A stretch of DNA of 63,892 nucleotides, filler included, from Hausera hauseri (GCA_046269625.1; 12 parts of 12 records of this genome joined end to end with filler, not necessarily neighbours in it), one strand, 5' to 3'; positions 6,336 through 57,400 are shown, numbered from the whole stretch's first letter. Notes: generated from the letters alone by a model not told the origin. Numbers and translations are program-made.

Positions 6336-6342
6336 GTAGATA

Positions 6343-6522
6343 CGCGTCCTCGAGGATCTCGTCGATCCGGTCGATACCGCCTTTACGGATCGCGTCGTCG
6401 ATCAGCGCCTGCTGTTCGGCTTCCAGGTGTTTCCGGCTCAGAATCAGGGGCAGGGTGGGCTTTCCCTCGGCCAGGTCGTCGCCGATGTTCTTGCCCAGGG
6501 TGCTGGCGCTGGCGGAAGAGCG
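6343..6522 (-). CDS. ispB: Fragment of bacterial octaprenyl/polyprenyl-diphosphate synthase
   Basis: Abrupt switch to GC-rich DNA with bacterial-type codon usage. Translation LGKNIGDDLAEGKPTLPLI...LIDDAIRKGGIDRIDEIL matches the GKxxGDDLxEGKxTLP motif of trans-prenyltransferases. Confidence 0.8.
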
Positions 6523-6567
6523 CAAGACTATCCTCAGTGAATCAGGCAATTCTCAATCTGCCCAGGT

Positions 6568-27421: not shown

Positions 27422-29530
27422 TTGGTATTGTATCATTTTTAGCAAATTCTATAATCTGCTGGATAACTATTCGGTTGAGATTTTCATTTGCTTTATCCAT
27501 CGTCAAAGCGCGTTGACGGTCTATTAATTCTTCGAGCTAAGCTTCCTTCATTATCATAAGTGCACTTGTCTTAGTTTTTAGTCTTGACAGTGCATTAGCA
27601 TCTACGTGTTTGTTTCCAGGCTTATACTGAAATTCGATATTACATTTAGAAATTTCTTCAATTCATTTGTTAAGCCTGCAGGTGGGATTATTTGCTCGTC
27701 ACGTCAAGGTTGTGACAGCTTTATGATTAGTAACAATTATGATTTTATGTCCGTATACGTAAGCGTTGAAATGTCAAAGTGCTTCTTTAACGGCTAAGGT
27801 TTATAATTCAGTAACTAAATAGTTTTCTCTGCCTTTTTTATGGATCGTCCCCCATAAGCGATTGGGTGCTCCAACTCTTCATCCTCTCGTTTCCGAACTA
27901 ATTCCTATCCAATACATTTTTGCTGGCATCTGTCTTAATTATGAATAATAAATTGAAGTCTGGGTATCGTAAGACTGGTTCGATTGTTAAAATTTTCTTC
28001 ATTTCGTCGAAAGCCTTTTGTTCGACGTCTGTCCATTTCCATTTAATTCCTTTCTTAAGTAGACGATATAAAGGTGCATTTATTTTCGAATAATCTGGCA
28101 CATAGGTGGCGTAATATCCACATAAACCTAACCAGTGTCTTAACTATTTCTGATTTTGCCGCTCTATACAATCTGATATCTTGCGCAATAACGGTTTATC
28201 TGGTTTCGATCCTCCTTCTCCAACTATGTGGCCAATGTAGGATTCTGCATTCTGAGCCCATTTACATATCTTTAGACTCAATTTTAATCATGCTTGTTCT
28301 AATCTCATCAATGTATGCTCAATATCTTTTAAATGCTCCCCTTCTGTTTTCGACGCTATCATTACATCATCTAAGTATGCAAATGCGTGGTCTTGACCCA
28401 TTAACATTTTATTCGTCATTCCTGTAAAAATAGCTGGTCCAGTGGTAATATCAAACGGCATGACATTAAATTCATAGTCACCATTGTGCTTTTTAAATGC
28501 GGTTTTATAGCGGTCTTCATCCTCGATTTCCACTTGCCAATATCCAGATTGTAAGTCCAGAGTAGTAAACCAGTAGTAGAAAACCATTTTTCTCCTGAAA
28601 GCTTATCCAAAGCTTCTTTTACTGACGGTATGGGGTAGGAATCATTCATCATAAGGTCATTCAGTGCACTGTAATCAATACAAAATCGATGTTTTGTAGT
28701 ATCATTCTTTTTAACCATAAGAATTGGTGGCTACCAAGATCCACAGCTGTGCCGAATTATATCGGCTTTAAGTATCCGTTCGACTTCTGTTGTTATCTCG
28801 AGTCTTAATGAATATGGCGGATGATACCATTTCGGCATCTTTTGATCTTCAAGATCTATCTCCTCATTTGAAATAGGCTTCTTATAAAGTGGAATAGTCA
28901 TGGGAAAGCTTTGCCCTCCCAATATCCTCGTCGTCTTTAGCAATGATTGATTTATAACGGTACAATAATTCATAGAATCGGCAGTAAAATTTACGTGAAA
29001 ACTTAGTTTCAACATGAGGCGGGAACTCGGCATATTTATAAGTTTTTTCTTCCATGGTTATGTCGACACTCTCTAGGCATTTCCTAAGGTAGTATAAGCA
29101 TGAAGTCTGACTTGGGTCGGTGCAGTATTCGCTATCCTGATCGGCATATGACCTGAGTGTACTCTTATTAATGCATTACTAAGTATTTTATTTGGATCTA
29201 ATGTTTCCTTTAGTTCAAAATATAAGGGTTGGTCATCATCTCGTTGGGTTTGCGCGTAGATTATTATCGCTGTTCTTGGTAGAATATTGCCGGCTACTAA
29301 AACCCGTACTTCTTCAAAGTTCTTATCTTTGGCGGTTTTTACGCCTTTATTTTGCCTATGCTTCCTATGCTTCCGGGATCCTTCGTAGATGGTAGATATA
29401 ACTGTTCACTTAACGTTTGAGGAAGTGAGTCGTTTTTTGATGTAAGACATCTCGGAACCTGTGTCGATTAGGTCATAAACTTCCCAATCTTCAATAGTAA
29501 TTTTGGCGAAGGGTCTCCATTCTATTACTG
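27422..29530 (-). mobile_element. Ty3/gypsy-type pol (protease, linker, RT, RNase H), decayed
   Basis: PR YDLIDTGSEMSYI (DTG at 29457-29465); RT RFCIDYSALN, FTTLDLQSGYWQV, YEFNVMPF, AYLDDVMI; RNase H LRYPDFNLLFIIKTDAS. Confidence 0.92.
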
Positions 29531-30064
29531 TTCCAAAACAATTTGATGCAATTTTTTGGCGCTTCGTTGCCGATATCTTGTGACCGTTTTTCCTGATTTC
29601 TGGGGGGATACTATGTTTTCTATTAGTTGTCTTAGTTCCCCATTTGGATATTATTTATTGTTTTCGACGTTCGATTCTTCCGTTTCATGAGTAGTAATTA
29701 ATGGTTCTCGGTTGTTTGTATGCGGTTCTATATTCCGGAAGGTCTGTCGTCTTTTATTCCCCCAGACAGGTGGTCTGGTTTCTATATTTCGAGGTTCCCT
29801 TGGAGAGTACAAAATTCTAGGATAATCCATAGACTGTCGGTAACACATTTTCTGTAGGATTCCATATCGTTCTGTTCCTTCATAAGGGTCTTCCAAGCTA
29901 ATTGTTCTCTTGTAGACTTCTGTATGATACGAACTCATTGGTCGTTTATCGCAATCTTCGTGGACCGCAGCGGACGGGGATAACATGGACAATGGTGCCT
30001 TGTCGATGGAAAATGTCTTATGTCGATCTGTTTTAAAGGGGGCTTCTCCTCCCTTATGCTGGCA

Positions 30065-30359
30065 AGGATTCCCATTTAGCTTTATATCGAGTATCGTCTA
30101 CTACGGAGGTCATGGCTCCGTTTAATTCGTGTGTCCGCTGTCGCGGAAAAGCGAGGAATTGTCTGAAGGCTTCGATTTCCTTAGGCCTATATATGCCTTT
30201 TGACAAGGTGTCTTGAAATTTTTCGTCTGTAATTCCTTTTGCAAGATTTATTCCTGTTAATTTATTTGGAGCGGCAGTAATACCTCAATTTGGCAAACTA
30301 ACCCAATCCGTTTCATTACGCCTAAGCATGGGTTCTCCTAAACTTGCTTTACAATCTTT
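30065..30359 (-). repeat. Diverged direct duplicate of env segment 30792-31087
   Basis: Both copies encode CKASLGEPM...ETDWVSLPN.GITAAP.KLTG.NL.KGI.D.KFQD..SKGIYRPKEIEAFRQFLAFP.QRTHELN..M.S.V.DTRY.AKWES. Confidence 0.9.
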
Positions 30360-30499
30360 ATGACAGAATACGTCTTATGTTGTTTGTTCCTGAAAGTATT
30401 TCTCCTCCTTTAGGCTCGTCATAATCTGAATTATTTCTTAGCGTATTAGGTTTTGTAAATTTCCCCTTGTACAAGAACATAGGCCTTCCTTTTCGTATA

Positions 30500-32330
30500 C
30501 GATTATAATAACCGACATGGCGTTCTACTTCTAATTTCCATCTATTCCCTTCGTATGCTTTTAAGAACTTTCCAAAAGGCGTTATGATTGCAATCAGTAT
30601 TTTACATGAAAATCCGGTTAACGTAAATATTTCATAGCCATTTATTACTGCTTGGATGACTGCCTTAATTAGCTGGATTAAAAAATATATCGCTAAAAAT
30701 CCAGATGCAGCTTGTCAAAAAATTAAAAATCTGCCCCAAATTTTATAGAGTATTTCTGTGGTTACTCGTTGGTAATGGTTTACTTTGAGCCAGGATTCCC
30801 ATTTAGCTTGATATCGAGTATCGTTTACTATGGATGACATGGTTCGATTCAATTCGTGCGTTCGTTGTAGTGGGAAAGCAAGGAATTGTCTAAAAGCTTC
30901 GATTTCCTTTGGCCTGTAAATTCCTTTTGATGAAATGTCCTGGAATTTATCATCTCTGATTCCCTTTACAAGATTAGTTCCCGTTAACTTAATTGGAGCG
31001 GCAGTGATACCTCCGTTTGGCAAACTTACCCAATCTGTTTCGCTGCATCTAAACATTGGTTCTCCTAAGCTTGCCTTACAATTCTTAAGGATCATTGGCT
31101 AAGTCGCGTTATCTAACAATACTGTAGTAAGTGGCATGGCTAGCCGGGAAATATTTTTCTATATAACCGGAAGTTCATGTATACACCGATTCTCTTCGAC
31201 ATCGATCGATACATCCCTTTTTCACATTCGTAAGTAAATAAAATCTCACCGGTAACTCGCCCGAAAATTCTTTCTCTCATAGGAATTATTGGTGATGCTA
31301 ACTCGGGGTTAGAAAAAATGAGAGCTAGTTTTGTTCTCAGAATTTTCATGATTAGCTTACAATCATTCGTTATCATTTTATGGTATAGTTAGGTTATTCC
31401 AACTTGTCCTTTGTAGTAAAAATAATCGTCTCGATTTTTCAAGTAATCTTCAATACGAATATCCTGTGCTTCGAGTTAATAAGTCTAGCAACGTGAAATA
31501 ATTTCATTTTTAATAAGTTTCAGCCCATGTATATCAGAGATCAGTATCGTGGGGGTAGAATGCTCTGCCATGTCTTCGCGCGTTCTTGAGTTACCGTCGA
31601 ATTTATCCACATACCGCTTCCCGGTGGTTTCATTGAATTTCAGTTCCTTAATTTTCATAAAATTACAGTTTCTTCCATAGAGAGGTTCCAATATTATAAC
31701 GTAACTTCTAAAAGCACACATTCCGTCTTTTAAGTGGCAATTTTAATTCTCGGTATACAGTTTAATAACACTGTGAAACATCACTTTCTGTACTCGCATG
31801 TCTGATTCATAGAAATATACAACTACCACGTTCGATTGCAGCCCCTTTCCGGTGTCGTACTCTGACCCATTACAGTGTCCGTTATGCATATCTAGACTCC
31901 AAGCTATTACTTTATAAGTTTTAATTATCTTTCCTGGTTGTATTTCCAGTTCCATACTATCCCATTTTAATCTTTCTGTTTCTTTCGCCTGTTTACAGAG
32001 TTGACGTTCTAAGCTCATAAAAATTACAGGAGTTATTGGTTTGATTATCGGCGAATGTCCGTGCATTAGTCTTCAATGGAAAACTCTACGTGATCGCTGT
32101 AACATACACTACATTCCATCCAGTGATATCAATTCTTGTTTTTGGTGTAGGAAATAACTTTTCTCTTTTGTTTTTAGTTTAGGCGGTCTAGCATATTCGC
32201 ACGCTTCTAGGTCCATTAAGGAGTATTTCTGTCCAAGTTTAAATCTATCACAGTCATAGACCGTAACCGCACCCATCTGTTTTATCAACATCATCAATGT
32301 TAGCTAGCTAATTAATCAGTTCTATTCGTG
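30500..32330 (-). pseudogene. Chuvirus/Jingchuvirales-type envelope glycoprotein (env-like), upstream of the pol on the same strand
   Basis: Signal-like hydrophobic stretch, then VYDCDRFKLGQKYSLMDLEAC. Later motifs: LYHKMITNDC, FGRVTGEILFTYEC, SKGIYRPKEIEAFRQFLAFP and TM ILYKIWGRFLIF*QAASGFLAIYFLIQLIKAVIQAVINGYEIF. Homologous by eye to 43680-45560. Confidence 0.75.
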
Positions 32331-35300
32331 TCTCCATTTACTGTTATCTGTTGTCATCAGATTTCGTAACATGTCTTCGAGTCTGCTACCATTATCGAAC
32401 AATTTTGTCCAGTTTACCTATTGGGGAAAAATCTTAGCCGTACTTTGTGCCAAGCTTGTAGTTCTGTTAAATTCATTTTCTCGACTGGGATTCGTTTTGA
32501 TAACTATGTACAGAAGTACTTTTCTCAGTTCTTCTATCGTGTTCTCCACCATAATTTTTGCGGTCACTGTTTCATCGGTTAGACTACTTTTTGATAACTT
32601 AAACCAAGAATTTATCATTATTCTANNNNNNNNNNNNNNNNNNNNNNNNNNNNNNNNNNNNNNNNNNNNTTAATTAATTAANNNNNNNNNNNNNNNNNNN
32701 NNNNNNNNNNNNNNNNNNNNNNNNNTGTGTTAACATATCACTTTTTTTTGTTTGTTTTGTTTTTCAGTCAAACCAGAAGCAGGCATAATTATCACAAGAC
32801 CCAGATTGTTGACACTTTTTTCAGCTGCTTAAAACCGTTTTTAATCAAATTTCACGCTTTTTCCAAAGTGCACGGAGAAGGAAAAAGGATCATTGGAATG
32901 ATAAGAAATTTCATTGTCTGTCTTTGTTTTTGTAATATTGTAACAAACGTTTGACGTTATTGTTAGAAATGACTCTTTATAATCTGATTAACTCGTCTCG
33001 AGCTGCAAACCGCTTCACCGTAGAGCTAAAGGACAGTTTTATTCTGTTTATTCTCACGGTGGAATCAGAATATTTTAGCTGACGTGTATTTATTTTTGTT
33101 GGCAGATGGTTTTGATCCTGACTTTGTGATTCGTGTGTTCAGTTTCGACCCTGCTATGCACCTGCTCTTCTCAGTGCTTAAAAGATGATTTATGTGTTAT
33201 GGTCACATCGAATTTCAGCAGCTATTGGTCTGCCGCCTTTTGGGACATAAAGCAGCGGTTACAAAGTGCCGCAGGCTCGTTTGGGAGGCGGCACAGACAG
33301 AGAAGATCGGCATCATATAACTGGACCGGGCAAACGCCTGTCCAGAGGGCTGTTACAGCAGTTTGTTTGCTCTTACACTCAAATGAGTTATGGACACACT
33401 AAGGGAGGGAAGGCTGGCAATGGCTGCCATGAATCTTGTGTTGTGAGGATAGGTTCCCTCGACTTAAAGTCTCTAATAACAGTGAAGAGAAAATTGAATT
33501 TATCTGCAAAATCTTCAACCCCAACGTAAGTTCCAACTTGAAATTTTGTTAGTAAATCAATGAACTGAGATGCGACCACTATAATTAAAAATTGAATTAA
33601 TTGTAGCTGTGAAAAATGTGACGGAATATTTACAAGTATAAGTTATGTCATACAAAATGTATAGTTCACACACACATAGTGTAAAACATACAATCAATAT
33701 ATTTTTACTTTAGTTCTGGTTGATTAAATATTTATGTGTACAATGTATTTCACATAAAATATTTATGATACAAACATATATTTTAACATATTGAATACGT
33801 GGTTTAGAGTTTGTTTAGTTGTTGATTGAGTACTCATTTGAGAATGTTTCATGTACACACATATACAAGGTCCGGCAGAAACAGTTATCCATTTTAAATA
33901 TGATATGTTTCAGAATTTGACGATAAAATAATGGTTTGTTACCGCATACCGTACAAATGAACATTTCATAGCTTTTCCGAGCATGTAAATCACGGTAATC
34001 TGATATCCACCGTTGCTGGCACTGCAACCTGCCGCATGAACTCCCACATTCGCCATTACTTCATGTGGGATTTTATGACGTATTCATGCCCCAATTTATG
34101 TTTGAATGTTCGTTAATTCCCAAATGATTGCTGGCCAGTTTGACCAGACTTTGGAGATCCTTGCAGAAAAAAAGGCCAAGAGATCGAGGAGACTAACTGA
34201 CATCGCCAAGCCGGGAAAAAAAATGATTTGGAAGTGATTCAATAACAAACGAAAAGTCAGTACGCAAAGGTAACTGGCGTGGTGAGTTGCTGACTGGTTG
34301 GTTTGCACGGGCCTGGTTAATCGATTGTTGGGTGCTGGCGATTTCCTGGTTATTAGCTAAAGCAATTCTCGTTCCAGAAGCACTGCTTAGTAACGTGATT
34401 GATTGATTTCTCCGCATAATCAAGGGTGAGCTTTAGATCTTTTGCATGAGACCTGAAACGGGCAGTTGTAGTCCTAAGAAGTCCTTCTTAGGAGGATGCA
34501 GCTCCATCTCGTTGGTGTCTAGGAAGTGGGTCGGGGTTCTCCCGGCGATAGTGCAATGCTTGCCCTCACGGACGTGTTCCGCCACTCGTCACTCAAATCT
34601 CTGCCCGTTTGCTGCAGGTTTCCCTACCGTTGCCTGGGGATACAGCGCGGACGTGGGCAAGGAGCTGCGAGGCATGAGGAACACGCAGGAGACGCAAGAA
34701 GGATCGTGAATTACCATCGAATTGGAGTTGTGAATACGATTAGAGAAATTCTGAGGAAGAGGTACGATCCCTTATGTTTCTGCGCGGAGTACAAGGACAA
34801 TAATCTTTGTTCAAACTTGATACTTGAAAAATGTTACAGAAAGAACGAAGAGAGAAAGAAATAAAGAAACAAACAAACAAACAAACACAACGCAGGACGA
34901 GACGTCATTCAAAGACAATCCATAATCGGATGATTAAAAATTTTCAAAATATTTACTTTGTTTAAAAAGAAGCACTGCATAGATAACAGTCCGGATATCA
35001 AACAACGAAACAGAAACAATTGTTCTTCAATCAATTGTCACGCTCCGTGCGGATGAATTAATTTTGTTTCAGGCAGAACACGTTCGTGTTCCTTGTAGAA
35101 CATGCCATATCTACGCTAATCTGTTTCGCCTTAAAATAAAATTGAACAAATATAGAAACATCAACAGACAATTATTACATAAATTACGAAATATGTATGT
35201 CTTCCTTTTTGTGGGTGATCCTGGACAATTTTTTGCTCGTCGTTCCCGAGTACTAGGTAGGATAACGGAGAGTAAGGCTACAGACCAAGTTTGATTTGCA

Positions 35301-36951: not shown

Positions 36952-39200
36952 AATCGTCTTGTCTCCAATGTATCTTTCAACCATAGGTTGCATTATATTT
37001 CCTGTAAAATTTGATTCTTGGTCAGTCACTATAATTCTGGAAGATCCCAACCTATCGGGTGAAAAAGTCGATAAAAACCAGAATGTATTTATTCTTAATT
37101 TGTCTGACATTCTTGATAGGTAATCGGCGTTAGCATTTCATTTTCCGGGTTTGTATTGAAAGCTTGAAGTATAAGGTTGGAGTTTCAGAGCCCAACGTAA
37201 TAATCTCCTACTAGGATTATCATGTTCTTTTAACCATTGAAAAAATCGATGATCCGTATATATCAATATTTGTTTATTTGCAATAATATATGGTGAGAAT
37301 ACTTCTAGTGCAAATATTACGGCTAACAATTCCATTTCAATAACAGCATATTTCTTTTGGCGCTTGTTTAATTTTCTTGATGCACAAGCAACTGGATATT
37401 CTTTTCAATCTTCACCCTTCAGTGATAATACTGCTCCAACTCTGCAGTCACTTGCACCAGTTGCTAATATGAACGATTTAGTCATGCTGGATAAAGTAAA
37501 ATTGGAGCACTTAATAATCTTTCTTTTAAGTTTTTGTAAGCCTTCTGGCAGTTGCTTTTCCATAGCACTTTGTCTAAATCTTCGCGTAGTAACTCGTAGA
37601 GTGGCTTGCTAAAATCTTTTATAAACTTTCGGTTATAATTTGCAAGTCCTAGAAATCGGCGTAATTCTTGTACCCTAGTTGGTTTCAGAAAATCTTTGAT
37701 CTTGTCAAATAGCTTGTCCTGTGGTTTNNNNNNNNNNATCTTTCAAGTGGTGTTAAAAATTTGATGATGCTATGATTATATCGTCAATATAAACCATAGC
37801 ATGAGGTGCGTCAAAAGTAGTAATTCCGTTCCTCATTGAAAAGTTGGTGGTCTATTTTTTAATCCAAACGGCATTCTATTAAATTCCCATAATCCTTCAC
37901 CTGTCTAGAAGGCCGCTTTTGGTTTATCTTCTTTTACTTCTACCTGCCAGTACCCTTTCTGTAAGTCGATGGTGGTGAATATCGTTAAGCCGTGTAATTT
38001 ATCTAACATTTCATCTATCCTTGGTAATGGATACTTATCGGGTTCCGTTATTTCATTGAATGCTTGATAGTCTATATCGAATCTCATTGTTCCATCTTTC
38101 TTTTTGACTATTACCACTGGGGCTGTCCATGGGGATCAGCTTGGTCGTATTATCTTATTCTCCCCCATTTCTTTTATAATTTTTCGAGCTTTTTCCTTTT
38201 TATCGTATGATAATATATATGGTCGTTTCTTTATTGGTTTATTTTGCCCGTCTTTTAATTTAATTGCATGTTGTATTATATTCATTGTTCCTAAGTCACA
38301 AGCATTCTTAGCGAATTAACATTCCTTTTTCTTCCTTCGTTAGAATGTTGCAGTTTCGCAATTTTTCTTCCCAGTTAATATTGGAAACTTCTTTTCTCCT
38401 TTATTTTTGTTTGTTTCCTTCTTTAATTTTTCCGTCATCATTTTCTCAACCTTATCTATATCTGAGAGTACCGAATTGACTGCTTTTTTGATATTTCTTC
38501 AATAGCCGTTACCTGTCCAAGTGTCGTATTATTTCTCAGTCGTTTTTCTTTGCTTCCGGTATTGCAAATTCTTAAATGAATTCTTCTTTTTCTTACTCTG
38601 TCTGCATGCGGCGCAACCAGTATGTCATATTTCTCCATTAGTTGAGAATGGTTCAAAATGTACGTACATCGTTGGTGATGTACATTCTAGTCTGCCGGGC
38701 ACTACTACTTCGAAACGCGGTGGAATTATGACATCCTTTATTAGTGAGACTGATCCTTCGTATTGATCTTTGCTGAACGTTGTGAGCTGACCGGTTTTTA
38801 CATCGATGTACGTATTTTCTAATTGGTGTAATACGTCATACCCAATATTTCATTGCTAAGGTTTTTGACTCCTCTGACGGTGTGGTTTATCTTGTGGTCA
38901 CAAATCTTGATCTTTGCATCCAAGACCATCTTTATTTCTTCTTCCCTACCAAATGCTCGAATGTTGACCAGTGTTTCCGTTGGCTTCCACAATTTCTTTA
39001 TTAATTCTTTAAGTAGTTGATTTCTTCCCATTATTGTAGTCGTGGATCCCGTGTCTATTAGTGCAGTTAGTGGATATCCATTTACTGCGATATCTATTTC
39101 TGGTCTCATAAAGGACTGTGATCTATTTTTATTACTTGTGTCACATGTAGGTTCGCGTTTATAAGGTGTGGGGTTTTCCTCAGACTTTTGTTTCATTCGC
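36952..39200 (-). mobile_element. Decayed Ty3/gypsy pol (PR, linker, RT, RNase H, integrase fragment)
   Basis: YPLTALIDTGSTTTIMG; VIVKKKDGTMRFDIDYQAFN...DKYPLPRIDEML...TTIDLQKGYWQV; VYIDDIII; ELLAVIFALEVF...YTDHR...RLLRWALKLQ; integrase-like IIVTDQESNFT after an internal deletion. Confidence 0.9.
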
Positions 39201-39752
39201 AACACTTGGTACGTGGTATTGGTTTCAATAATCCCATTAGAGTCGTATCGAAAATTTGACACACACCAGCGCCGCTACCATTCAAGATTTTCGATATTAT
39301 TACAGTGGGTGATAGGTCATTACGGATAGTATTGTTGATGTCGTCCAATTTGTCTGACGCGTCAAATCCATTGAAATGACATTCAGGAAGTCGCTCTCTT
39401 AAATCAATTGGCAGTGTATTAAGTTTTCCCGTCAGAAATACCTTCTGATTGATCTGTAACAACTGAACAGCAATGAGACAATGTGATGCCGTGGACTTGA
39501 GCCAGAAGAGCCGATTTATCAAGAAAAATAATTCCGGCAATCTGTATCAAATATTTTCAAAAGATTGACGAATGGCAAAGTTGAACAACTCTAATGCGAT
39601 CCGGAATCTACGTCATTAAAATTATTCATTGAAAGTACGGTTTACGCAACATGTTGAAATTCTCAAATTCTAGATTATCTTATCTAGTAATTCAATTATC
39701 GAAAAGTATCAGGAAAATATCATAAAAATCTGGAACGTATAAATGAAAAAAT

Positions 39753-39925
39753 ATGGTTAAGATACTATGTCACAGCTGCTCTAAAAGGTGTGTTGGCGAT
39801 GTCTTGAAAGTAAGTGAACGATATTTTCATCTGGACTGTTTTCAATGCAAAGATTGCACAAAAAACTTGAGTACTGGCGGTTTTTTTATCGTGATGGAAG
39901 TTACTATTGTACTTCAGATTATACG
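39753..39925 (+). CDS. ABLIM1: N-terminal LIM domain of an actin-binding LIM protein (abLIM/UNC-115 family), 1-nt frameshift in a T-run
   Basis: MVKILCHSCSKRCVGDVLKVSERYFHLDCFQCKDCTKNLSTGGFF. Adding one T to the T7 run at 39881-39887 gives YRDGSYYCTSDY, completing the LIM domain as in abLIM proteins. Confidence 0.75.
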
Positions 39926-40729
39926 AATAGATTCACTCGGAAATTGGTCGTTTTGGTCACAACGGCCTTCTACTGGATCAAAAATTATTTCGTACGCTGA
40001 ATTGGTTGCAAGGCATCAAAAAAATGATTAAAGGCCTTGATTTTGAACCGACTAGAGACGTATCTATCGACTCAAGAATTTCATCAGTTATTTAGTCTTA
40101 ATAGAGCGGATTTTTATAGACTTCCGGAGTGGAAACAAAATGATCTCAAAAGACGTGTAAAATTGTTTTGACAAACTTTTTTTCAGATTATAAAGATTCT
40201 TTTTCCCCCGTTAATTTTGGAATATGCATCTGATTATTTCCTTTTTTAATTAATTCTACAACTCTCAGCTGTGATTTCTTATTTACCCGTTATTTGAAAC
40301 TTATGGAGTACTGCAATTTAGTCAAATAATTTCTGTGTTAAAGATATACTGTTTGTTACTTTAATTGTTTTCGTGATATTTTAGTCTTTATTTCAAGCAG
40401 AGAATCTACGTTTTTTTTCGTTCGTTATATGTAACCAGAAATACAAAAGGAATCAATAAAGATATTGAATTCCGACGGATAGAATTTTTATTTGAATTTG
40501 AATGCTAGGATACAATTTCTGATTTGCCTGTCTTTACCAAACGATAATAGAAAGGAAGATGAAGAGGAATACGAGATCGTTCAATCGAGGTGATAAACTG
40601 TTTCATAAATTGAACGATAACGAATTAGATCGAGAGGAAATTATGTCAAAACAGCGAAATGCGAAATAATTTATTGAATTTCAACATACCCGAGAGAATT
40701 GAAGTTGCAGACGTAATATTAAATGAAGC

Positions 40730-41155
40730 GTTTAATGCAGTGCATCACACATGTCAGGTCTGACTTTGTCCGTTCTGGTGAGTGGTTTTTGCTTCATGAT
40801 AACACTCCGGCACACACTGTATATCGCATTATTTAGAAAAAATATAAGTTACCGTACTTAATCATCCTCCTTATTCACCAGATTTGGCACCAGCCGACTT
40901 TTTTATTTCTAAAGTTGAAACTTCATATTAAAGGTCTAATGTTTGATGATGTTGATGACATTAAAACAACTATGACAAGGAATTAAAGGGAATTTTGGAA
41001 GAACAGTTTTCTGATACCTTTCAGTCGCTGTATCATCCTGCAAAGTTGTGTATTGAACGAGAAGGGCGCATGTAGAAAGTTAGATAAATTAAGATTTTGG
41101 AATGTAATTATTTGGTTTTTTATTCGCACAGACCGGGAACTTTATTGCCATACTA
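40730..41155 (+). mobile_element. Decayed mariner (DD34D) transposase C-terminus with right TIR-like end
   Basis: WFLLHDNTPAHT...VTVLNHPPYSPDLAPADFF...KLKLHIKGLMFDDVDDIK. Confidence 0.85.
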
Positions 41156-41457
41156 TATATGTTGCTTGGAAAACAAAAGAGTAATACTGGTTTAAAGTGA
41201 TATATTATAATAGCCAATGATAATGTTTGTTGGTAATAAAAATGTCTTGAACAAACGACGTAGAAAGGTAGCATGTATTCTGTTAACACTGTTAGTGTCT
41301 CACTGTCCGAAAAATAACATTATTCAATAACATGGAAATTGATCGCAACTGCATTATNNNNNNNNNNNNNNNNNNNNNNNNNNNNNNNNNNNNNNNNNNN
41401 NTTAATTAATTAANNNNNNNNNNNNNNNNNNNNNNNNNNNNNNNNNNNNNNNNNNNN

Positions 41458-43300
41458 CTCGTTCAATTGTTGACCATTTACGCTGTGTTTCGCTTAACGT
41501 TTTACTAAGACATTCTATTATTCCCTCACGTGGTCTATCAGGTACTGCTTGTCTTAAGACTGCTCCTATAGCATAACCACTGGCATCAGTCATTATTACA
41601 TAGGGATATTTGTGATTAGGGAATTTTAATATTGGTGGTGAAGTTAGTACTTGTTTTAAACCTTCGAATGCTCTCTGTTGTGTTTCTTCCCAAATCCATG
41701 TTGTTCCCTTCTTAGTTATTTCTACTAGAGGTTTAACTATACTTGCAAAATTATAAACAAATTTCCTGTAATAATTGGCCATTCCTAACAGCCGTTGTAA
41801 TTCTTTAAGACATTTAGATGGTTTTAACTTTTTAAGTTTTTCTACATTTCTAAGGTCAGGTTGAATACCTTTGCTTGATACTATATGTCCAAGAAAGGTA
41901 ACTGTATTTTTAGCAAATTCGCATTTTTTCATTATTATTTTTAAATGAGCTTTCTTTAATTTATCAAACACTAAAGAAATATGTTATAAGTGTTGCTCGA
42001 AGTTTTCAGAAAATATTATTACATCGTCTATGTACACTATGTAATGAGTTAATCCTTGTAATACAAAATTCATACATCTTTGAAATGTAGCCGGTGCTCC
42101 TGTTAGACCAAAAGGCATAATATTGAATTCCCATAATCTAGTTTTGGTTGAAAAGGCTGTTTTCTGTTTATCTTCTTCAGCGACTTCAATTTGCAAAAAT
42201 CCACATTGTAAATCTAGGGTAGAAAATACTGTGGCATTTCTTAATGCTGTTAACATCTTATCTATTTTTGGTAATGGATAATTGTCTTTCTTCGTAAAAT
42301 TATTTACCGCTCTAAAATCCACACAAAATCATTGTGCTCTATCTTTCTTTTGTACTAATACTACTGGGGATGTCCATGGTAAAAAGTTTGGTCAAATAAT
42401 ACCATGTTCCATCATTTGTGCTATCTGTCTATCGCATTCTTCTTTTTTAATTTCTGCCATTCGATATGGATTTTGTTTAATAGGGTAGGTGTTTTTCGTA
42501 ATTATGTGGTGTTGGATAACGTTAGTTCTACCAATGTCATTATCATTCATAGCTATGATATCTCGATACTTGTGAAATAACTGCAATAGTTTCTTTAATT
42601 GATATGGGGTTACGTCACCATTTTTGAATTTTATATTCTGGTTTTCTACTAAAAATGTTGCTGCACATACCTTGACTGGTTGCAACTGTCCTAAATTGAG
42701 GTTCTGCCGTAATTTGATTTCCTTCTTATTAATGCTTTCTCTTGGTAATTCTAAACATTGTACTTCTTTCGGTACAAATATAGGATATTTCAAAATCTTG
42801 TATTTCTCATTATTATATAAATTTGGTTTAAACATACAAGTTTGTTTATGATAATGTGATGGTATTTTCAGCATTACTACTATCTGCTGTTGAGGTCTAA
42901 CAATAACATCGTGAGTTAAGGTCATGCTAATTTCCTCAATTGGCAAATTGGTCATCGTATATTTTAGGGTTTTGGCAGATAGATCCATCGAAAGTCCTGA
43001 AATTTGAGATAATATGTCCATTTCTATTACCAAAGGTACATGCAATATTTTATCATCCACCACGAACAGAGTTATGGTGTATAAATTACCATCAGTTTTT
43101 ATTCTAGTGCTTATTTTTCATAAAAACTGTATTTGTGTAGAGTTAGCTGCTGCGATTACTACATCGCTTGCATAATTTCTGCCTTTTGATCATCCGTTAA
43201 ATATGAATGTCGGATCATCGACACGGATGCACCGGTATCTAACAGTGCCATAATATTTAATCCATTGAATCGTACCGGAATATACAGGTTATTTCCTGTT
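41458..43300 (-). mobile_element. Ty3/gypsy-type pol (PR, linker, RT, RNase H)
   Basis: ALLDTGASVSMI (DTG at 43231-43239); DFRAVNNFTKKDNYPLPKID, FSTLDLQCGFLQI, WEFNIMPFGLTGAPATFQRCM, VYIDDVIIFS; RNase H YVIMTDASGYAIGAVL. Confidence 0.95.
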
Positions 43301-43679
43301 GCTATTTTAGTTTGATTCATAAAAATAAATTTTGTATTATTTCGTCGGTTATGTTTGGTATTATATTGTCGAAGTACATTTGGTGGGTAAGCAGTACTTG
43401 GTAGGCAGATGTATTTATCTGAATCTCTTATTAATGGAAGTTCATACATGGATGTATCTTTCATGTCTCTACGATCTAATTCTGGGCATTTATCGATGGG
43501 TTCATGTTTATAGTATGTTGGTGCTTCTGGCTCAAAATATTTTCTTGCTTTCTTTCTTAACAATTTATACTTAACTAAGTATTCTTCTACAGTCAACTTA
43601 ATAAAAGCTTGTAGCTGTTGTTCTAGTTCTGGGGCTAAGAGAAGTTCTTTCCTTAATTTATTAAGTTCCTTTGCATGCC

Positions 43680-45560
43680 AATACATTAATACTGACTTAG
43701 CCATTGAAGGGATACAACCCAACATGATTTGCCATGTACAACCGCGTACTTTCTTTATATTTCCGGCAGCTCCTTTTTGTCTTAATATAACTAATACAGT
43801 AGTGATTATAACGTATATGCCAAAGATTCCAGATATTACTTGGCCAAAAATGAGGAATTTATTCCAAAAATCATAAAGAATCTTCTTAGCTGTTTTTTCC
43901 AAATGATCAACTGGAAATAAAATTCCGTAATTAGGTGTTCCGTCTGATCCTTTTAAAACAATGTATACAAATTCCGTTATTACCTTTTCTCGGATATTTT
44001 GAAATAATACTTGTTTTCTTACTGCTTCCAGGTCAGTTAACAAATATAATCCACTGTTAGGAAGTTCTCTATTTACCATAATTTCATTCCTTTATCTAAT
44101 GGTAGTAATCCAATTGTCTGTTGTACGTTCATCATAGTTGGTGGACGTGTTTTAGTCCATCTTTCATCACTAAGCTTAAAAGCTGGATAAAATTCTTTGT
44201 AGCATGGTGCGAAGGTAATTTCCGTAGGTAATAAGAATTTACGAGTAATAGGGTCTAAATATCCAAATTTGACAACATTTTTATCATTATATTGAACCAT
44301 TAATTCATTCGTGCAATTTGCTCTTGTAGATGTTATAGGCGTCACTTCTATCGGTGGATATTGATATACATGGAGTATTTCCCCTTGTATTCTACCAAAT
44401 GTTCCGGGGCGATATCCCATGATTAGAGCAATATGTCCAGGAAACTCTCTCGCCAATATCAAATCATGTTGGTTTAATTTTTATGTGATTTTGCAATCTC
44501 TTATTACCATCACGTTATACAGTTCAACTAAATCCTTTTTTGCAGTATGATAAATATAATCTATTTTGTTATTCGTATATAAGTACCACGTTATATCCTC
44601 AGTTGGTAATTTCCAGTACTTGCTAAAGTATTTTTTGTTACAAAGAGATCATCATATGATGTAGGATAAACGGCATTTGATCCACAAGTTGACACTGCTC
44701 CTTTCCGTGCTAATACTATTCCATCTCTGTCGTTGGATGACATCAAAAATTTTAAAGAAGCTGTCTTCTGTAAAAACCGTGGGTCGGGTAAATTTTTGTT
44801 ATGGTTATGTACAGATTCTTGATATTCGTCATCGTAATATAGATCACCTTGTATCTCATACATAAATATTTATTTTAGAAAAGCTAATGGACATATCATA
44901 ACTGTTTTCTCCCAAACTAATATAGATTCTCCTGAAGTACACACTCCATCAGAATATGTACAAGATGGTGCCGTCAGCATTTTTCCGGTAATTGCATCAA
45001 AGTTTACTTTATATTCTTTTATCGTGACGGTAAAATCTTCTATTTGCACTACAGAGGATTCCTTTTGTCCATTTATCATCATGGTTTCTCCATCACGGCC
45101 CCATCCATATACGGGCTATATTTTTTTAGCTGTAACTATCCGTGAATAAACTCGTTTTCCTATGCTTGCTTGTACTGGCTGCTTTAATCCTACTTGAATT
45201 GAATCTGTGGCTTTTCTACAATCTTCAGCAGTTATTGTTACAGGTTTTGGCAATCCTGGTGGAATAATTACGGAATTCCATGAGTTATGGCCACAATTAT
45301 AAGCAAATATTACTTTATTAACCTGGCATTCCTTTATTTGAACTTGCTGATAACTAATTCTTTTGTACAAATTTTAATTATAAGGACCCTCCTTCTTTAC
45401 TGATATTGGATTTGCATTTTGACATTTACCTATATCTACCAGTGAAAGTCTAGCTGTTATCTCGGGTTTAGAACAATCATAGGCTTCTAATGCTGTCGTA
45501 GTTTTTAAGCTGCTAACGACTATCAGGTATAATAACAAATGAATGATTTTTACTACCCAT
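43680..45560 (-). pseudogene. Chuvirus/Jingchuvirales-type envelope glycoprotein whose TM and tail run in frame into the protease
   Basis: Signal peptide WVVKIIHLLLYLIVVSSLKTTTA, then LEAYDCSKPEITARLSLVDIGKC; AYNCGHNSWNS; CTYSDGVCTSGE; YTNNKIDYIY; FGRIQGEILHVYQ; CTNELMV; NSGLYLLTDLEAVRKQVLF; TM FWNKFLIFGQVISGIFGIYVII. ORF 43159-44079 contains both the TM region and the LLDTGA protease motif. Confidence 0.82.
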
Positions 45561-45822
45561 TCTGAGATATTGGTATCCTTGGGTATATTAAGGTTGTAGG
45601 ATTAAATCTTTTAATAATTTCATCCCAACCACCGTGTTTCGTTACCCTATCTTTTGTTAACCTATCCATTTGATATGCCAAATCCTTTACTATATGGTGT
45701 AGCTTGGCGTCGACCTCTGTTTNNNNNNNNNNNNNNNNNNNNNNNNNNNNNNNNNNNNNNNNNNNNTTAATTAATTAANNNNNNNNNNNNNNNNNNNNNN
45801 NNNNNNNNNNNNNNNNNNNNNN

Positions 45823-47830: not shown

Positions 47831-49940
47831 TCCAACTCTGTTTTCCGAAATCTTGTTTACCCTTTTTTCATTTATTCTTCCTATCTGATATGGCGACTCT
47901 ACCCCTCCTAATTCCCCATCTTCAAAAAGATTCGAAATATTTTTTGAATTTACACAGTTAGCTTGTATCTCTACGCTTAACTTCTCAAACTACTTTTCAA
48001 CATATTGGAGTTCCGGACATCCGATGATTTCTTGTAATTTATTTAATCTATTATGGTTCTTTGTTTCAAACAAATTTCGTTTATAACACATTTCTTTGAT
48101 ATCTGTTACAGACGATACTGTCCGCCGATAGCTAATCTCTATTTGTTTAGAGGCATAGACCTTTGATACATTTTCTTTTAAATTTTTATTGCCCTCGGCA
48201 TAATGTTCTACAACTCCCCAACTTAGCGTCACTCCTGCAAGATAGTCACGGCTTTTCCTTTTATTCGTTTTCTCATAACTCCTCACCGTACATATTTTGC
48301 AAAAGATTCTCGCCTTTATTTCAAACTTAGAATGGAATGAACAAGAACCGAAAACGAGGAAACAGACATAAAGACATCGGAAGACAAATGCTTCACGTGG
48401 TTTGTACTCGCGGATCACACCTCCTAACTCGTCCTGGTTGCTACACATGTTAATTTATAAACCTTTCTAAATTTCCAAGTTTCTTTATTCAATATATTAT
48501 TATATAAAAAACATTTATATTACTTTACATGCATTCCTGACCATTGTTCTCGCGGTGTCTCTCCGCGGGGGAATATTTCCACCGTTAAGTATAATCATCT
48601 GCTCAGACATTCCGATTTTAGCAGACACACAATTCCTGTCAACATTCATGGAAACAAAAAAGAAACGATAACGGAAAACCATAATATTAATACAACATCC
48701 GACATTAACTAACACTTTCCATTCTATGTGCTCTATCAGATTTTGAATCACGATTTCTAGTCTACCATCAAATTTTTCCAAAATCAATTTCTCTGTCAAT
48801 ATAATACCGGCAATTAAGTGTCTTCCGATAGCTTTTCGTTTCTTTTCCCTTCTCTCTCTATTCCCCGGGGAATATCTAAACATATCCATTCATTTTATAA
48901 ATTTTAATTTTTCAATGACAGAACGTATGAAACTATACCGATATGATTTCCTCATATTTTTATTACGTATTTCCATATATATAACTTTCCCAGTTGAAAA
49001 ATAATGCAATATTTGCGAACTGAAATAACGCATTTCGGACACATTCATTTTATGTTTCTTTTGAGGCATTTTTCCGACTGAGTTTTATCTTTTTTCGAAG
49101 AGAAGCGAGACACATGTCCCCTGAATCTTTCTAAATCATTATATGTAAATTTATTTTCAGCTTTCTTAATATTTATACAGAATCTTATTTGAAAAGATAG
49201 TCTAGGATGAATAGATAAAAACATTCCAAGTGTAATCTTCCAGAAATAAAAATATGATCTTAATTACTCTAAGAATAAATTTAGGCAATATGCCAGGTTT
49301 TGAATGTCAGATGCTTTTAGATAATAATTAGTAATTTTCCCATAACATGTAGAGTTGCAAACTAAATTTTTAATTCAAATGCTAAATATTTTGTTTATGG
49401 TAAACTACTGTGCTGTATGTGACATCTTCCTCTTTTGCTTCTTTCTGTTAAAAAAGAAGTAAAAAAGGAACTTCTGCTTCTTCATCCTGCTTATTTACAA
49501 TTGACTTGTTATTTTTAAATGTTTGAAGTGCAATTTCTGCACATTGTGCCAGTTTTCTAAGTGTCATTAATGTATCATACTTTTTCACTTCTTTTTTCTG
49601 ATAACAATCCTTTGATTGCTGGTGTAAAGGAACCATTCATTGTGTTGAATTTTTTTTTGAAAAATATTATTAGATAAAGATTGTTTGCATATCTGCTTAC
49701 ATAATTAATCTGTTTATGCAGTGGCGATAACCATCCCTTCTCCTCCAAACTCCGTCTATATCTTTAAATCATTTTTTATAAAACTTTGTTAACAATAATG
49801 CTAATGAATATAAATGAAAAAGGATATACAAAAGAAANNNNNNNNNNNNNNNNNNNNNNNNNNNNNNNNNNNNNNNNNNNNTTAATTAATTAANNNNNNN
49901 NNNNNNNNNNNNNNNNNNNNNNNNNNNNNNNNNNNNNACT

Positions 49941-51185
49941 GTGTGTTCACTGAATAGCCAAGATTCTTTCAATCCTCAGGCATGTAGTCTTGGAGCTTCG
50001 GCACGTGGTAATGACAGCAGTTCTTTTAATCCTCAAATTTATAGTTCGGCTATATTAAATGAAAATCAGGGTATTGAAAATTGGATGAATGATAGCGATT
50101 CTTTTAGCCCTGATCTATTCGGAGTGGGATCTAAAGGTTGTATGAATGTGAATGAAGATCAATGTCCTTGTGCCAAAGGTACTGTGTGTTCACTGAATAG
50201 CCAAGATTCTTTCAATCCTCAGGCATGTAGTCTTGGAGCTTCGGCACGTGGTAATGATAGCAGTTCTTTTAATCCTCAAGTATATAGTCTTGGATGTTCC
50301 AGATGCGGTAATGACAGCAGTTCTTTTAATCCTCAAATCTATAGTTCGGCTATATTAAATGAAAATCAGGGTATTCAAAATTGGATGAATGATAGCGATT
50401 CGTTTAGCCCTGATGTATTCGGAGTAGGATCTAAAGGTTGTATGAATGTGAATGAAGATGAATGTCCTTGTGGCAATAAAGGTACTGTGTGTTCACTGAA
50501 TAGCCAAGATTCTTTCAATCCTCAGGCATGTAGTCTTGGAGCTTCGGCTTGTGGTAATGATAGCAGTTCTTTTAGTCCTCACGTATATAGTCTTGGATGT
50601 TCCAGGTGCGGTAATGACAGCAGTTCTTTCAATCCTCAGGCAGGTAGTCTTGGAGCTTCGGCTTGTGGTAATGACAGCAGTTCTTTTAGTCCTCACATAT
50701 ATAGTCTTGGATGTTCCAGGTGCGGTAATGACAGCAGTTCTTTCAATCCTCAGGCATGTAGTCTTGGAGCATCAGCATGTGGTAATGAGAGCAGTCAGCG
50801 TGATGACCAAATAAATCGTCTTTCGTTTGATATCCCACATGACGAATCGTCAAATGCGGAAATCCCTTGTGCTGCATTTCTCATGTACAATTCTAGTTCC
50901 AATAGTAAATCTCTCGAAAATTTGGTATACAAAGGGAAAAGTGTGGATATTGAAATAAAAAATCCTCCAAAACCCATAATAAAATGTTACCCAGACGGAC
51001 TGTGCAGTCTGAAATATGAAATCAATCCGAAATTTATTCTCAACATTTCCCGAGTACCATTGCAATATATTGTGCAAGGTGATTGTGAGAATATGTCAAA
51101 TTCACTGAACGTTCCATGTCTTCAGAAGGGTGCAGTACAAGTGTCTTTTAATGAGTCATCGAAGGACATAGTCGAACAGTGTTAA
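49941..51185 (+). CDS. Cys/Ser/Gly/Asn-rich tandem-repeat protein, 5' truncated, unknown function
   Basis: Open 414-aa ORF with 19-aa (57-nt) repeats SSSFNPQACSLGASACGND nested in ~81-101-aa higher-order repeats. Unique C-terminus, with AATAAA at 51305. Confidence 0.7.
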   Translation: MCSLNSQDSFNPQACSLGASARGNDSSSFNPQIYSSAILNENQGIENWMNDSDSFSPDLFGVGSKGCMNVNEDQCPCAKGTVCSLNSQDSFNPQACSLGASARGNDSSSFNPQVYSLGCSRCGNDSSSFNPQIYSSAILNENQGIQNWMNDSDSFSPDVFGVGSKGCMNVNEDECPCGNKGTVCSLNSQDSFNPQACSLGASACGNDSSSFSPHVYSLGCSRCGNDSSSFNPQAGSLGASACGNDSSSFSPHIYSLGCSRCGNDSSSFNPQACSLGASACGNESSQRDDQINRLSFDIPHDESSNAEIPCAAFLMYNSSSNSKSLENLVYKGKSVDIEIKNPPKPIIKCYPDGLCSLKYEINPKFILNISRVPLQYIVQGDCENMSNSLNVPCLQKGAVQVSFNESSKDIVEQC

Positions 51186-54487: not shown

Positions 54488-57400
54488 CAATAGTTCTTTC
54501 CGAGTAATACAATATCCTTTTTCATGGCTGTTCATTGTGTGTGATCCGTATGCAATCACTCTCTTGCGCCCCAAACTATCCTTCTGTGACTGTACAGCTC
54601 CAATTGTGTCGAAGCTTGCGTCCATAACGAGGATAAATTCTCTGTTGAAATCAAGGAAACCTAATATTGGCGGTGTGGCCAAGGCTCTTTTCGTTGACTC
54701 GAAAGCCTCATTACATTGCTCGGTCCATATTAGTATCTTGTTATTCAATCCTCACAGTTTCTGCAGTGTCTTGGCCTTTGCTGTGCAACCTTGGATAAAT
54801 CTTCTGCAGTAGTTGCAGATCCCTAAGAAGCTTCGCAAATTCTTGACACATTTTGGTTTCTAGAAAGATTTAATTGCTTCCAGTCTGTCTGTATCCTCTT
54901 GTAATTCACTACGTGCCATAAAAAGTTTATTTCTTTCTTCAGGATGTGACATTTCTTTGGGTTCAATCGGAGACCTGCTTCCCGGATCCGTTGCACTACC
55001 TTTTCTAGTATCCTATAATGGTATTCTAGAGTCTTGGAGAAGATTAGTATTTCATCGAGTTATACCACTGTTTGTTCAATGTTTCCTAGTACTTTATTCA
55101 TTAGTTCTTGGAAGGTGCCCGGGGCTGCTGCTATACTGAATGGCATCCGTTTGAAACAGAATTGCCATAATTTGGTTGAAATCGCCGTCTTCAATTTGGA
55201 GTCTTCCTCTAGCTCCACTTGATAGTATGCATTGCCTAGATTGATTGACGTGAAAAACTTGATCCCGAATAACCTGTCCAATATCTCTATCACGTTAGGC
55301 ATGGGGAAGGCCTGCCGTTCCGTTATAAAATTTAGCTGTCTGAAGTCCAAGTATATTCTGACATCGTTCTTGTCTTTCTTCCATACGCATATCATTGGTG
55401 TATTCCATGCTGAGTTGCATGGCTTGATAATGTCGTTTTCCCATAGGTTTCTGATGATCTTGTCGTTCTTTTTCTATAACTTTACTTGTTGCTTATAAGG
55501 TTTGATACTGACCGGCGCTCCTGTCGTGTCTATTCGATGTTTGATGAGATGTGCACCCTATGTCCCACTTGTCGGCTATTAATACTTCTGGACATTTCTG
55601 TATAATATTTAGTAGCTCTTTGCTGTCACTCACCTGAAGAGCTTTCTTCACCCTGTTGACTCGTTCTTGGTTACTCACTTTATGGCCTAACTTGGCTTCC
55701 AGGTTGCACATATGTTACTGTAATGTTTCTGTTTCCGTGCGTTTCCATTCCAGTTCTATTCCGAATGCCTTTTGCAGGTCCGCGCCACCTATTATTTCTG
55801 GGCGTAATTCTCACACTACCAGGAATATTACACGACTCCTTAGACCCTTGATTTCTATATCTGTTGTAAGTGTGCCCAGGCAATCTAAGGGGCTATTGTT
55901 CGCGCATCATAGTGTGGTATCCAATTTCTCTATGTGTGTGTTTGCAAGTTTATCTACGCTCTTCTTGCTTATAACGTTGACGCTGGCCCAAGTGTTTAAT
56001 AAGCAATCTTCCCATCTGTCTTGTATCTTTAATTTAATTCCTGATCGTCCATTAAACTTCCTGTATGATATCTGTTCGACGCAAAATTCTTCTAGCGTGA
56101 CGATCTGCGTATCGTTCTCATTTTCCTTCATTCCGTTGAAGGATACTTCTTGGAAATTTTCCGTTTTTATAAATGTCCGTACTTTTTCCTGTGTCCTTTT
56201 ATCCATCAACATATCTCCGTTTCGCTTTCTTCTTGATCTATCTATATTGTTTGATATACTACTACTATTATACATAACGATATTTTGGGACACGGAATCT
56301 ATTGTAGTGCACCGATTTTCGCCACTTCTGTCGAGGTTCTGCCTTTTTGGACAACTGACTCCTGTTCCAATTCTGTTTCTTCTTTATCTACGTTTGCGAT
56401 TCTTCCCCTCCCCGTTTTCTGTTCATATTATCCCCGTATCTTCTTTTGACGTTGTATATATCCCATCTTGGTTCTCTTTTCCCCTCCAACCTGGTGTAGA
56501 ACTCCGTTTCGGTATGTCCCCTATGGTGATATCTTGCAAAGGTACGGTTTGTACAATTTCATCTCATGTGCCCTAGCTGACCACATCCGTAACAGCTTAC
56601 TGGCTTCCTTTTGAGACACTACATGATTATGTGTCCTTCTTTTCCGCATCCAAAGCATTTAATCGGTCTCAATGTGGTGCAAGTTCTGCTCGTATGTCCT
56701 TCCTTCTGGCATGTCCAACACTTTTATCCACTATTTGGTGGTCTAGTTTGCGTCGCCTTGATTCTTGGAACTGGTTTCTTGATATTTTGTGCTGCCACTT
56801 CCTAGTAGCTTCTTCTACCGATCCCCGAATACTCCTTAACCGTGTTGACATCTTCTGCCTTAATCTTTACCTCCTGTATCTTCCGTATTTTCTCTTCATG
56901 GTTTCCGCATCTCGTTTGTCACTGAGGCAAATTTCTCATCTCATCTCTCTATTATTACAACATTGGAACAATGGTTTCTCTTTCAGAGCATCGCGAGAAA
57001 GATCGTGATTCATTACTTTATCCAGCAGTTTCTCAATTGCCTCAAAGTAAGCTTCCGGTTCCGGTCCATTCATTCTGTACTCGAGCGCTTCTTTCAGATC
57101 TTCGCACAGCGTTGAGAGTCGGGCGAAAACCTTCCGTAGTCGGTTTTGATATCCACTTATTCTCGCATCTACTGCCTCGTACCTTTCAAGTGTTTCTTCC
57201 TCCAAGAGGCATTCAACCATTATTTCGTGCTTTGCCGCCGGGGTGTTCATATATTTAAAGAATTTTTCACATCCTTTAATGAACTTCTCCACGTCGTCGC
57301 CTTTACTGAATTTGCTGGGCAACAATTGGTTTGCGAAAATGTCCATTGTGGCGCAAGTCACCATGTTGGACGCGGACACGTCCACGCCGTCCACCTCGTC
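54488..57400 (-). mobile_element. Decayed Ty3/gypsy LTR retrotransposon: gag with 3-4 CCHC knuckles, PR, RT, RNase H
   Basis: Gag 57394-56936; knuckles CWTCQKEGHTSRTC, CFGCGKEGHIIM*C and CYGCGQLGHMR*NC; PR CLLNTWASVNVI (degenerate DTG); RT YLDFRQLN...NLGNAYYQV...FKRMPFSIAAAPGTFQ; RNase H FILVMDASFDTIGAV. Confidence 0.93.

What the first reader, a model, noticed from the sequence alone, without database searches (positions are those of the whole stretch)
27422..32625. Second, divergent element with the same env-before-pol architecture
Seen: an independent contig has a homologous but clearly diverged glycoprotein (YDCDRFKLGQKYSLMDLEAC; FGRVTGEILFTYEC vs FGRIQGEILHVYQ; ILYKIWGRFLIF vs ILYDFWNKFLIF). 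It is followed on the same strand by a hydrophilic linker, a DTG protease (29457), RT (YLDD) and RNase H. Inference: two divergent copies with the same gene order argue that env-PR-RT-RH is a conserved family architecture and not a one-off rearrangement.
Basis: partly seen in the sequence, partly recalled or inferred. Interest (0 to 1): 0.8.

Follow-up and report, generated by a model that had tools for sequence, protein, structure and literature searches.

The report
Decayed envelope-before-polymerase retrotransposon copy
This is a broken, internally rearranged copy of an animal retrotransposon whose virus-like envelope gene sits in front of its polymerase genes, a gene order already described in flatworm and nematode elements, so it is likely a new divergent member of a known kind and not a new design.

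Summary
On the minus strand of contig 27422-32625 lie a chuvirus-like, herpes-gB-fold fusion glycoprotein (PF24664), its transmembrane segment and tail, a hydrophilic linker, protease, RT (YLDD) and RNase H. All are broken by stops and frameshifts, except the linker, whose first 136 codons are stop-free. The order is a real family trait. The second contig has env and protease in one stop-free frame. Five database polyproteins run env-PR-RT-RH uninterrupted, and Gag marks, where present, lie upstream of env. No gag or LTR remnant sits in the linker. The order is published: planarian Burro elements (env in frame between gag and pol) and GAG-ENV-POL gB-type errantiviruses of flatworms, nematodes and bryozoans. 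First, a 299-nt piece of env is present twice (81% alike, differences mostly at third codon positions), so the contig is probably a chimera of two subfamily copies; the right-hand copy alone still reads env piece, tail, linker, protease. Second, the two RTs do not group together. Copy 2 joins the env-first clade (98/93); this one is a long, unplaced branch, and monophyly is not rejected (AU p 0.38). Verdict: new divergent member of a known kind.

The parts
32316..32625 (-). End of an unknown coding stretch upstream of env, cut by the contig end; no gag present, BCL2-like test negative
   Evidence: Frame open 32624-32421; profile of relatives' BCL2-like region scores 0.9 bits, 437 of 1000 shuffles as high; gag profile no hit
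32259..32315 (-). Hydrophobic, internal signal-like segment directly before the YDC start of the env ectodomain
   Evidence: Hydropathy 1.58 over 19 residues; a segment above 1.6 lies at the same place in 5 of 9 relatives examined: P0001, P0005, P0011, P0024, P0038
30724..32258 (-). Class III (gB-type, chuvirus-like) fusion glycoprotein ectodomain, broken by stops and one frame break
   Evidence: PF24664 E 4e-18; 13 of 14 family-conserved cysteine columns kept; model of the X-read N-part matches herpes gB (Foldseek E 6e-7; VIA Z 8.6, rmsd 13.9, 299 aligned)
30361..30723 (-). Env transmembrane segment (30723-30667), second hydrophobic stretch (30630-30574) and cytoplasmic tail
   Evidence: PF24664 positions 550-600, E 6e-8; hydropathy
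30062..30360 (-). Second copy of the late env ectodomain (30789-31087), 81% identical, from a diverged subfamily
   Evidence: 35 of 53 differences at third codon positions, 28 synonymous vs 19 non-synonymous codons of 95
29999..30060 (-). Second copy of the end of the env tail (30356-30416), opening the linker
   Evidence: Local alignment score 57, 0 of 2000 shuffles as high; same reading (KGGE) in both coding frames
29517..30061 (-). Hydrophilic linker between env tail and protease; 136 codons stop-free; no CCHC, gag or LTR signal
   Evidence: Mean hydropathy -1.27; no CCHC in any minus frame; no Pfam hit; no gag profile hit
29406..29516 (-). Aspartic protease, N-terminal part with DTG motif (29465-29457); rest broken
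   Evidence: Profile of relatives' proteases, iE 5e-5; motif
29067..29312 (-). PR-RT spacer domain homologous to that of env-first relatives (the position of Burro's dUTPase-like domain)
   Evidence: Profile iE 1e-6; the env-less contig 36952-41357 scores as well, so not diagnostic
27922..28880 (-). Ty3/gypsy reverse transcriptase (YLDD 28377-28366) and connection domain, broken
   Evidence: PF00078 E 1e-16; 43-46% identity to env-first relatives over 216-217 residues
27543..27930 (-). RNase H, degenerate and frame-broken; contig ends before integrase
   Evidence: tblastn to P0038 and P0040; integrase profile no hit in this contig
41458..45722 (-). Copy 2, on a separate contig: BCL2-like remnant, env, transmembrane segment, linker, protease, RT, RNase H
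   Evidence: ORF 43162-44091 holds PF24664 and aspartic protease without a stop; 59-79% identical to P0001; BCL2-like profile 28 bits

Best explanation
The contig is a decayed fragment of a Ty3/gypsy-type retrotransposon whose gB-type envelope gene lies before protease, RT and RNase H, and it is likely a recombinant of two subfamily copies of a Burro-like GAG-ENV-POL family. Shown: the domains, their order, the decay, the duplicated env and tail pieces, and the same order in stop-free relatives. Inferred for the intact family: one long polyprotein starts with Gag in the cytosol. An internal signal segment sends the env ectodomain into the ER lumen, where it would be cut just before the YDC motif. 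The env transmembrane segment returns the chain to the cytosol, and the element's own protease would then release RT, RNase H and integrase from a membrane-anchored precursor. Particles would bud with env on the surface and pass between cells by class III membrane fusion. This copy cannot do any of this.
For: PF24664 and gB-fold matches for the target env. Gypsy-type RT. Copy 2 has env, TM and protease in one stop-free ORF. 13 of 18 scanned relatives have env then protease in one protein, and none of the 18 has env after RT; 3 of 5 cluster members also do. Gag marks lie upstream of env in P0003, P0024 and P0042 (Pfam) and P0011 (CCHC motif). TM-to-DTG distance is 132-392 residues in the 13 of 15 relatives where both motifs were found. 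Signal-like and TM segments flank env in relatives. The linker opens with a repeat of the env tail end, tying it to env. The family is multi-copy in run X1: 10,562 of 15,501,002 contigs laid, all 30 bins covered (X1 may be the source sample). The order is published for Burro and for flatworm, nematode and bryozoan errantiviruses.
Against: The target RT does not fall inside the env-first clade in any tree; it is a long branch about 40% identical to all rows. No intact close relative was found: best env identity is 30%, and searches with the target env found none. Gag, integrase and LTRs are outside the contig. An unbroken env-pol frame is not seen in this copy. No BCL2-like signal before env. 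The host was not identified. The processing and fusion steps are inference only.
Confidence: 0.85

Rival explanations
1. The env and pol belong to two unrelated neighbouring elements (an env-last element followed by the pol of another), or a chuvirus-derived endogenous gene lies by chance before a gypsy pol.
For: The duplicated env piece marks a junction between two diverged copies at about 30360. The RT does not group with env-first relatives. None of the 120 listed RT hits of 381-2000 aa carries PF24664.
Against: Downstream of the junction the sequence still reads env piece, env tail, linker, protease. The linker is only about 550 nt and has no gag or LTR signal. The env is closer to env-first polyproteins (22-30%) than to the stand-alone glycoprotein P0027 (17%). 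The best RT score among all 127 or so proteins compared was an env-first polyprotein, P0011 (205 bits vs 202).
Confidence: 0.06
2. Same family and gene order, but the duplication and junction are an assembly chimera of collapsed repeat copies, not a real recombinant in the genome.
For: High-copy family with variants mostly 85-95% alike. Short contig. No listed record spans the stretch, and two listed records that match the second env copy do not continue across the junction (table 8).
Against: The two env copies differ by 19%, more than assemblers usually merge (general knowledge). The right-hand copy also lacks the TM part, which needs a second breakpoint. Template switching between co-packaged RNAs gives such products (established for LTR retroelements; recalled).
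Confidence: 0.3
3. This family's pol is a separate gypsy lineage that took up the Burro-type env cassette in the same position by an old recombination, so env-first architecture here is not simple shared descent with copy 2.
For: The env nests loosely among Burro-like envs (beside P0011 at 80/88) while the RT stays outside the 98/93 env-first clade. GAG-ENV-POL elements are reported not to be monophyletic in pol.
Against: AU tests do not reject the target joining the env-first clade (p 0.382) or copy 2 (p 0.38). Both env and RT branches are long, as decay and fast evolution would give. P0011 is the top score for both genes.
Confidence: 0.3

Closest known systems
Burro / GYPSM1 giant gypsy-like LTR retrotransposons of planarians (PMC6431247, section 7 read)
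   Same: Env between gag and pol, homologous to mononegavirus-like fusion glycoproteins, directly followed by protease, a spacer domain and RT. Copy 2 and P0001, P0007, P0014 have a BCL2-like stretch before env, as Burro does.
   Different: The target shows no BCL2-like signal before env, its RT is far from the Burro-like relatives (38-41% over 399-412 columns), and size and other accessory domains cannot be seen. No Burro reference sequence was available to compare directly.
GAG-ENV-POL errantiviruses with HSV/gB-type env in Platyhelminthes, Nematoda and Bryozoa (PMC13524379, sections 5, 6, 14 and parts of two supplements read)
   Same: Ty3/gypsy pol, gB-type env placed before pol. By eye, the cysteine spacing and motifs of the relatives' env resemble the six Schmidtea 'Platyhelminthes_C1a' rows and not the bryozoan or nematode C2 rows.
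   Different: This copy is broken and rearranged, gag is not in the contig, the host is unidentified, and the target env is more divergent from those rows than its database relatives are.
Chuvirus-glycoprotein-bearing BEL/Pao elements of mosquitoes (Dezordi et al. 2020, PMC7642597; search listing, and as cited in PMC13524379 section 14)
   Same: Same env family (chuvirus-like, gB fold) carried by an LTR retrotransposon.
   Different: The pol here is Ty3/gypsy-like: nearest named RT hits include K02A2.6-like and Ty3-I Gag-Pol.

Membership tests
Ty3/gypsy LTR retrotransposon (Metaviridae) | PR-RT-RNase H order with gypsy-type RT | tested here: met
Ty3/gypsy LTR retrotransposon (Metaviridae) | Integrase after RNase H; flanking LTRs and primer-binding site | not testable with these tools
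   Contig ends before integrase; no genome held. P0005, P0011, P0038 and P0040 have integrase after RNase H
GAG-ENV-POL gB-type errantivirus | Env of HSV/gB (class III) type | tested here: met
   PF24664; fold matches to gB for the target and for relative P0014; models of middling confidence (pLDDT 61 and 68)
GAG-ENV-POL gB-type errantivirus | Env upstream of pol in the same element, no gag between | tested here: met
   same order in relatives
GAG-ENV-POL gB-type errantivirus | Gag upstream of env | not testable with these tools
   Contig starts about 370 nt before the env ectodomain; seen in P0003, P0011, P0024, P0042
Burro (strict sense) | Env in frame with pol in one polyprotein | tested here: inconclusive
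   Met in copy 2 (env to protease) and in 5 relatives (env to RNase H); the target is broken between env and protease
Burro (strict sense) | BCL2-like domain before env | tested here: not met
   Target 0.9 bits, 437 of 1000 shuffles as high; copy 2 28 bits (profile includes its close relative P0001). The profile has only 3 sequences and the region is decayed and cut
Burro (strict sense) | RT inside the clade of Burro-like env-first polyproteins | tested here: inconclusive
   Outside in three trees; AU p 0.382
Burro (strict sense) | Giant size (internal region up to 25 kb) and planarian host | not testable with these tools
   5.2-kb contig; host not identified

The most novel reading that the evidence does not exclude
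The target represents a distinct gypsy pol lineage, about 40% identical in RT to everything sampled, that carries a Burro-type gB env cassette in the same env-before-pol position through an old cassette exchange. Its two env subfamily pieces would record recombination between co-packaged genomes. Env-first polyproteins would then have spread between pol lineages within one host group.
Probability: 0.25. Interest if true: 0.5.

Novelty: new member of a known kind. Interest (0 to 1): 0.27.

Why it matters
It adds a very divergent family to the small set of env-before-pol retrotransposons, alongside a Burro-like relative in the same window. These elements raise an open question: how one polyprotein threads a fusion protein through the membrane between Gag and Pol, and whether they are infectious in their hosts. 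A single decayed fragment does not make that question more testable than the intact published elements already do.

Tried and rejected
No whole genome was held, so the assembly could not be screened; within the window's 12 contigs only this one and copy 2 hit the env profile. Searches for close relatives with the target env found nothing: proteins of 833-2375 aa, viral contigs, metagenome contigs (147 pattern matches, none confirmed) and prokaryote genomes (71, none confirmed). No RNA holder was listed. Atlas searches gave no usable lead (best 0.76; bacterial DUF4238 at 0.92 with low recognition, taken as noise). PDB sequence searches found no solved env relative. No tRNA in the window. BCL2-like domain in the target: not supported. 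A long alignment of the env TM/tail part with the linker was no better than shuffles (110 of 1000); only the 62-nt tail repeat is significant. Earlier findings of this scan: none returned. The original Burro paper and Sacco et al. 2022 were not read (one search failed; one search did not list the latter); they are cited only through PMC6431247 and PMC13524379. For the 42-row RT tree I kept 34 of the 120 listed RT hits, chosen to span the 129-row tree, plus P0050 and five env-first proteins among 40 references; P0054 was left out of the mixture tree. For the env tree, near-duplicates P0004, P0006, P0042 and hits under 330 aligned residues were left out.

Full report
Setting. The window is a string of 12 contigs joined by N-spacers; no genome is held. 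The finding is one whole contig, 27422-32625. The comparison element (copy 2) is contig 41458-45722. Other contigs include a spectrin gene, so the material is animal; the host was not identified.

Observation. All quoted motifs are on the minus strand at the stated places. Env: three stop-free pieces hit PF24664 (Monjiviricetes fusion glycoprotein) at E 3e-4, 4e-6 and 6e-8 in profile order. The N-terminal frame read with X at stops scores 65 bits, E 4e-18. It keeps 13 of the 14 cysteine columns conserved in at least 11 of 12 relatives. An AlphaFold model of that frame (mean pLDDT 61) matches herpesvirus gB and other class III fusogens (Foldseek E 6e-7; VIA-align top rows all class III, Z 8.6, rmsd 13.9, 299 aligned). 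A model of relative P0014 (pLDDT 68) matches gB (E 4e-13) and chuvirus-like glycoproteins (E 3e-40). Pol: protease start (iE 5e-5), spacer domain (1e-6), RT (PF00078 E 1e-16) and RNase H. There are 19 stops in the eight segments read in their homologous frames and several frame breaks. Gag and integrase are not in the contig.

Is the order a family trait? In copy 2, ORF 43162-44091 holds the end of env, the TM segment and the protease without a stop. Searching with it gave 35 hits; most matched through the env part, but the query does favour this architecture. Of 18 scanned, 13 have env followed by a protease in one protein and none has env after RT. Three of five further cluster members do too. 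P0005, P0010, P0011, P0038 and P0040 (1251-4844 aa) run env-PR-RT-RH, four of them on to integrase. Gag marks lie before env in P0003, P0024, P0042 and P0011. The target is homologous to these along both env (22-30%) and RT-RH (38-41% over about 410 columns).

The refutation test. Between env and protease there is no CCHC motif, no Pfam hit, no gag profile hit and no LTR-like repeat. There is an unnoticed repeat. 30062-30360 is a second copy of env 30789-31087, 81% alike. It is followed by a second copy of the last 60 nt of the env tail (0 of 2000 shuffles as good), which opens a 136-codon stop-free linker. The two env copies differ at third codon positions in 35 of 53 cases, so they diverged while both were coding. 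The contig is therefore best read as the left part of one subfamily copy joined to the right part of another that lacks its TM segment. The right part alone still reads env piece, tail, linker, protease, RT. Whether the join is genomic or an assembly product is open. Run X1 holds a large family: 10,562 of 15,501,002 contigs laid at 85% or more, 503 of them at 99% or more, all 30 bins covered. It has joints that switch between the two env copies, but no listed piece spans the stretch. X1 may be the source sample and is not independent support.

Do the RTs form a clade? Not shown. Target and copy 2 are 32% identical over 339 columns. In a 129-row FastTree, a 42-row LG+G4 tree and a 41-row mixture tree, copy 2 joins the env-first polyproteins (97; 94/93; 98/93). 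The target is a long branch with no starred placement. AU tests reject neither target plus env-first clade (p 0.382) nor target plus copy 2 (p 0.38). In the env tree the target sits weakly beside P0011 (80/88) and copy 2 with P0001 (100/100). Congruence of env and RT trees cannot be judged for the target.

How it likely works. Five of nine relatives examined show a hydrophobic segment just before the env start, and all nine a TM segment after the ectodomain; the target has both. Inference: a Gag-first polyprotein inserts into the ER at the internal signal, env is cut free at its N-terminus, the TM brings the chain back to the cytosol, and the protease processes Pol from a membrane-tethered precursor. 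Env would allow cell-to-cell spread by class III fusion. None of this was tested, and this copy is non-coding.

What is known. [quoted passage not shown] Chary and Hayashi (PMC13524379; abstract, section 5 part 1, sections 6 and 14, passages, and parts of supplements 1 and 2 read) report GAG-ENV-POL elements with gB-type env in Nematoda, Bryozoa and Platyhelminthes, not monophyletic in pol. Their supplement lists 9 flatworm and 10 bryozoan elements. Figures could not be seen. By eye the relatives' env resembles their Schmidtea rows; no computed comparison was made. Copy 2 has a BCL2-like stretch before env (Pfam Bcl-2 on P0014 at E 1e-3, below cut-off) and looks Burro-like. The target does not show it.

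Verdict. Real feature, correct gene order, known architecture. What is new is modest: a very divergent family and a two-subfamily chimera. New member of a known kind; interest 0.27.

Noticed in passing
P0005 (2486-2738), P0011 (2254-2557), P0038 (2592-2901): Intact env-first polyproteins carry a second signal-like and TM pair after integrase in the same frame, i.e. a further predicted membrane protein. One piece weakly resembles a purple acid phosphatase N-terminal domain (E 0.065, below cut-off). Not mentioned in the sections I read; not searched for in the literature.
   Followed up: partly
P0003, P0005, P0040: Several relatives have repeated aspartic-protease motifs after env: 4, 3 and 7 D[TS]G[AS] motifs (Pfam stretches).
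   Followed up: no
window 45577-45720 (-), and P0001 about 1226-1325: BCL2-like stretch (GGW motif) directly before env in copy 2 and its close relative, as in Burro.
   Followed up: partly
P0011: An env-first retroelement polyprotein is filed in NCBI under a Flavobacteriaceae metagenome-assembled genome, probably animal contamination of that bin.
   Followed up: no
window 36952-41357 and 54488-59306 (-): Two further decayed gypsy elements with PR-RT-RH and no env profile hit; they serve as env-less controls.
   Followed up: partly
window 1-6567 (+): Spectrin gene with an SH3 domain, split over several ORFs.
   Followed up: no
window 49938-50800 (+): Tandem coding repeats of about 57 nt inside a 431-codon ORF.
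   Followed up: no
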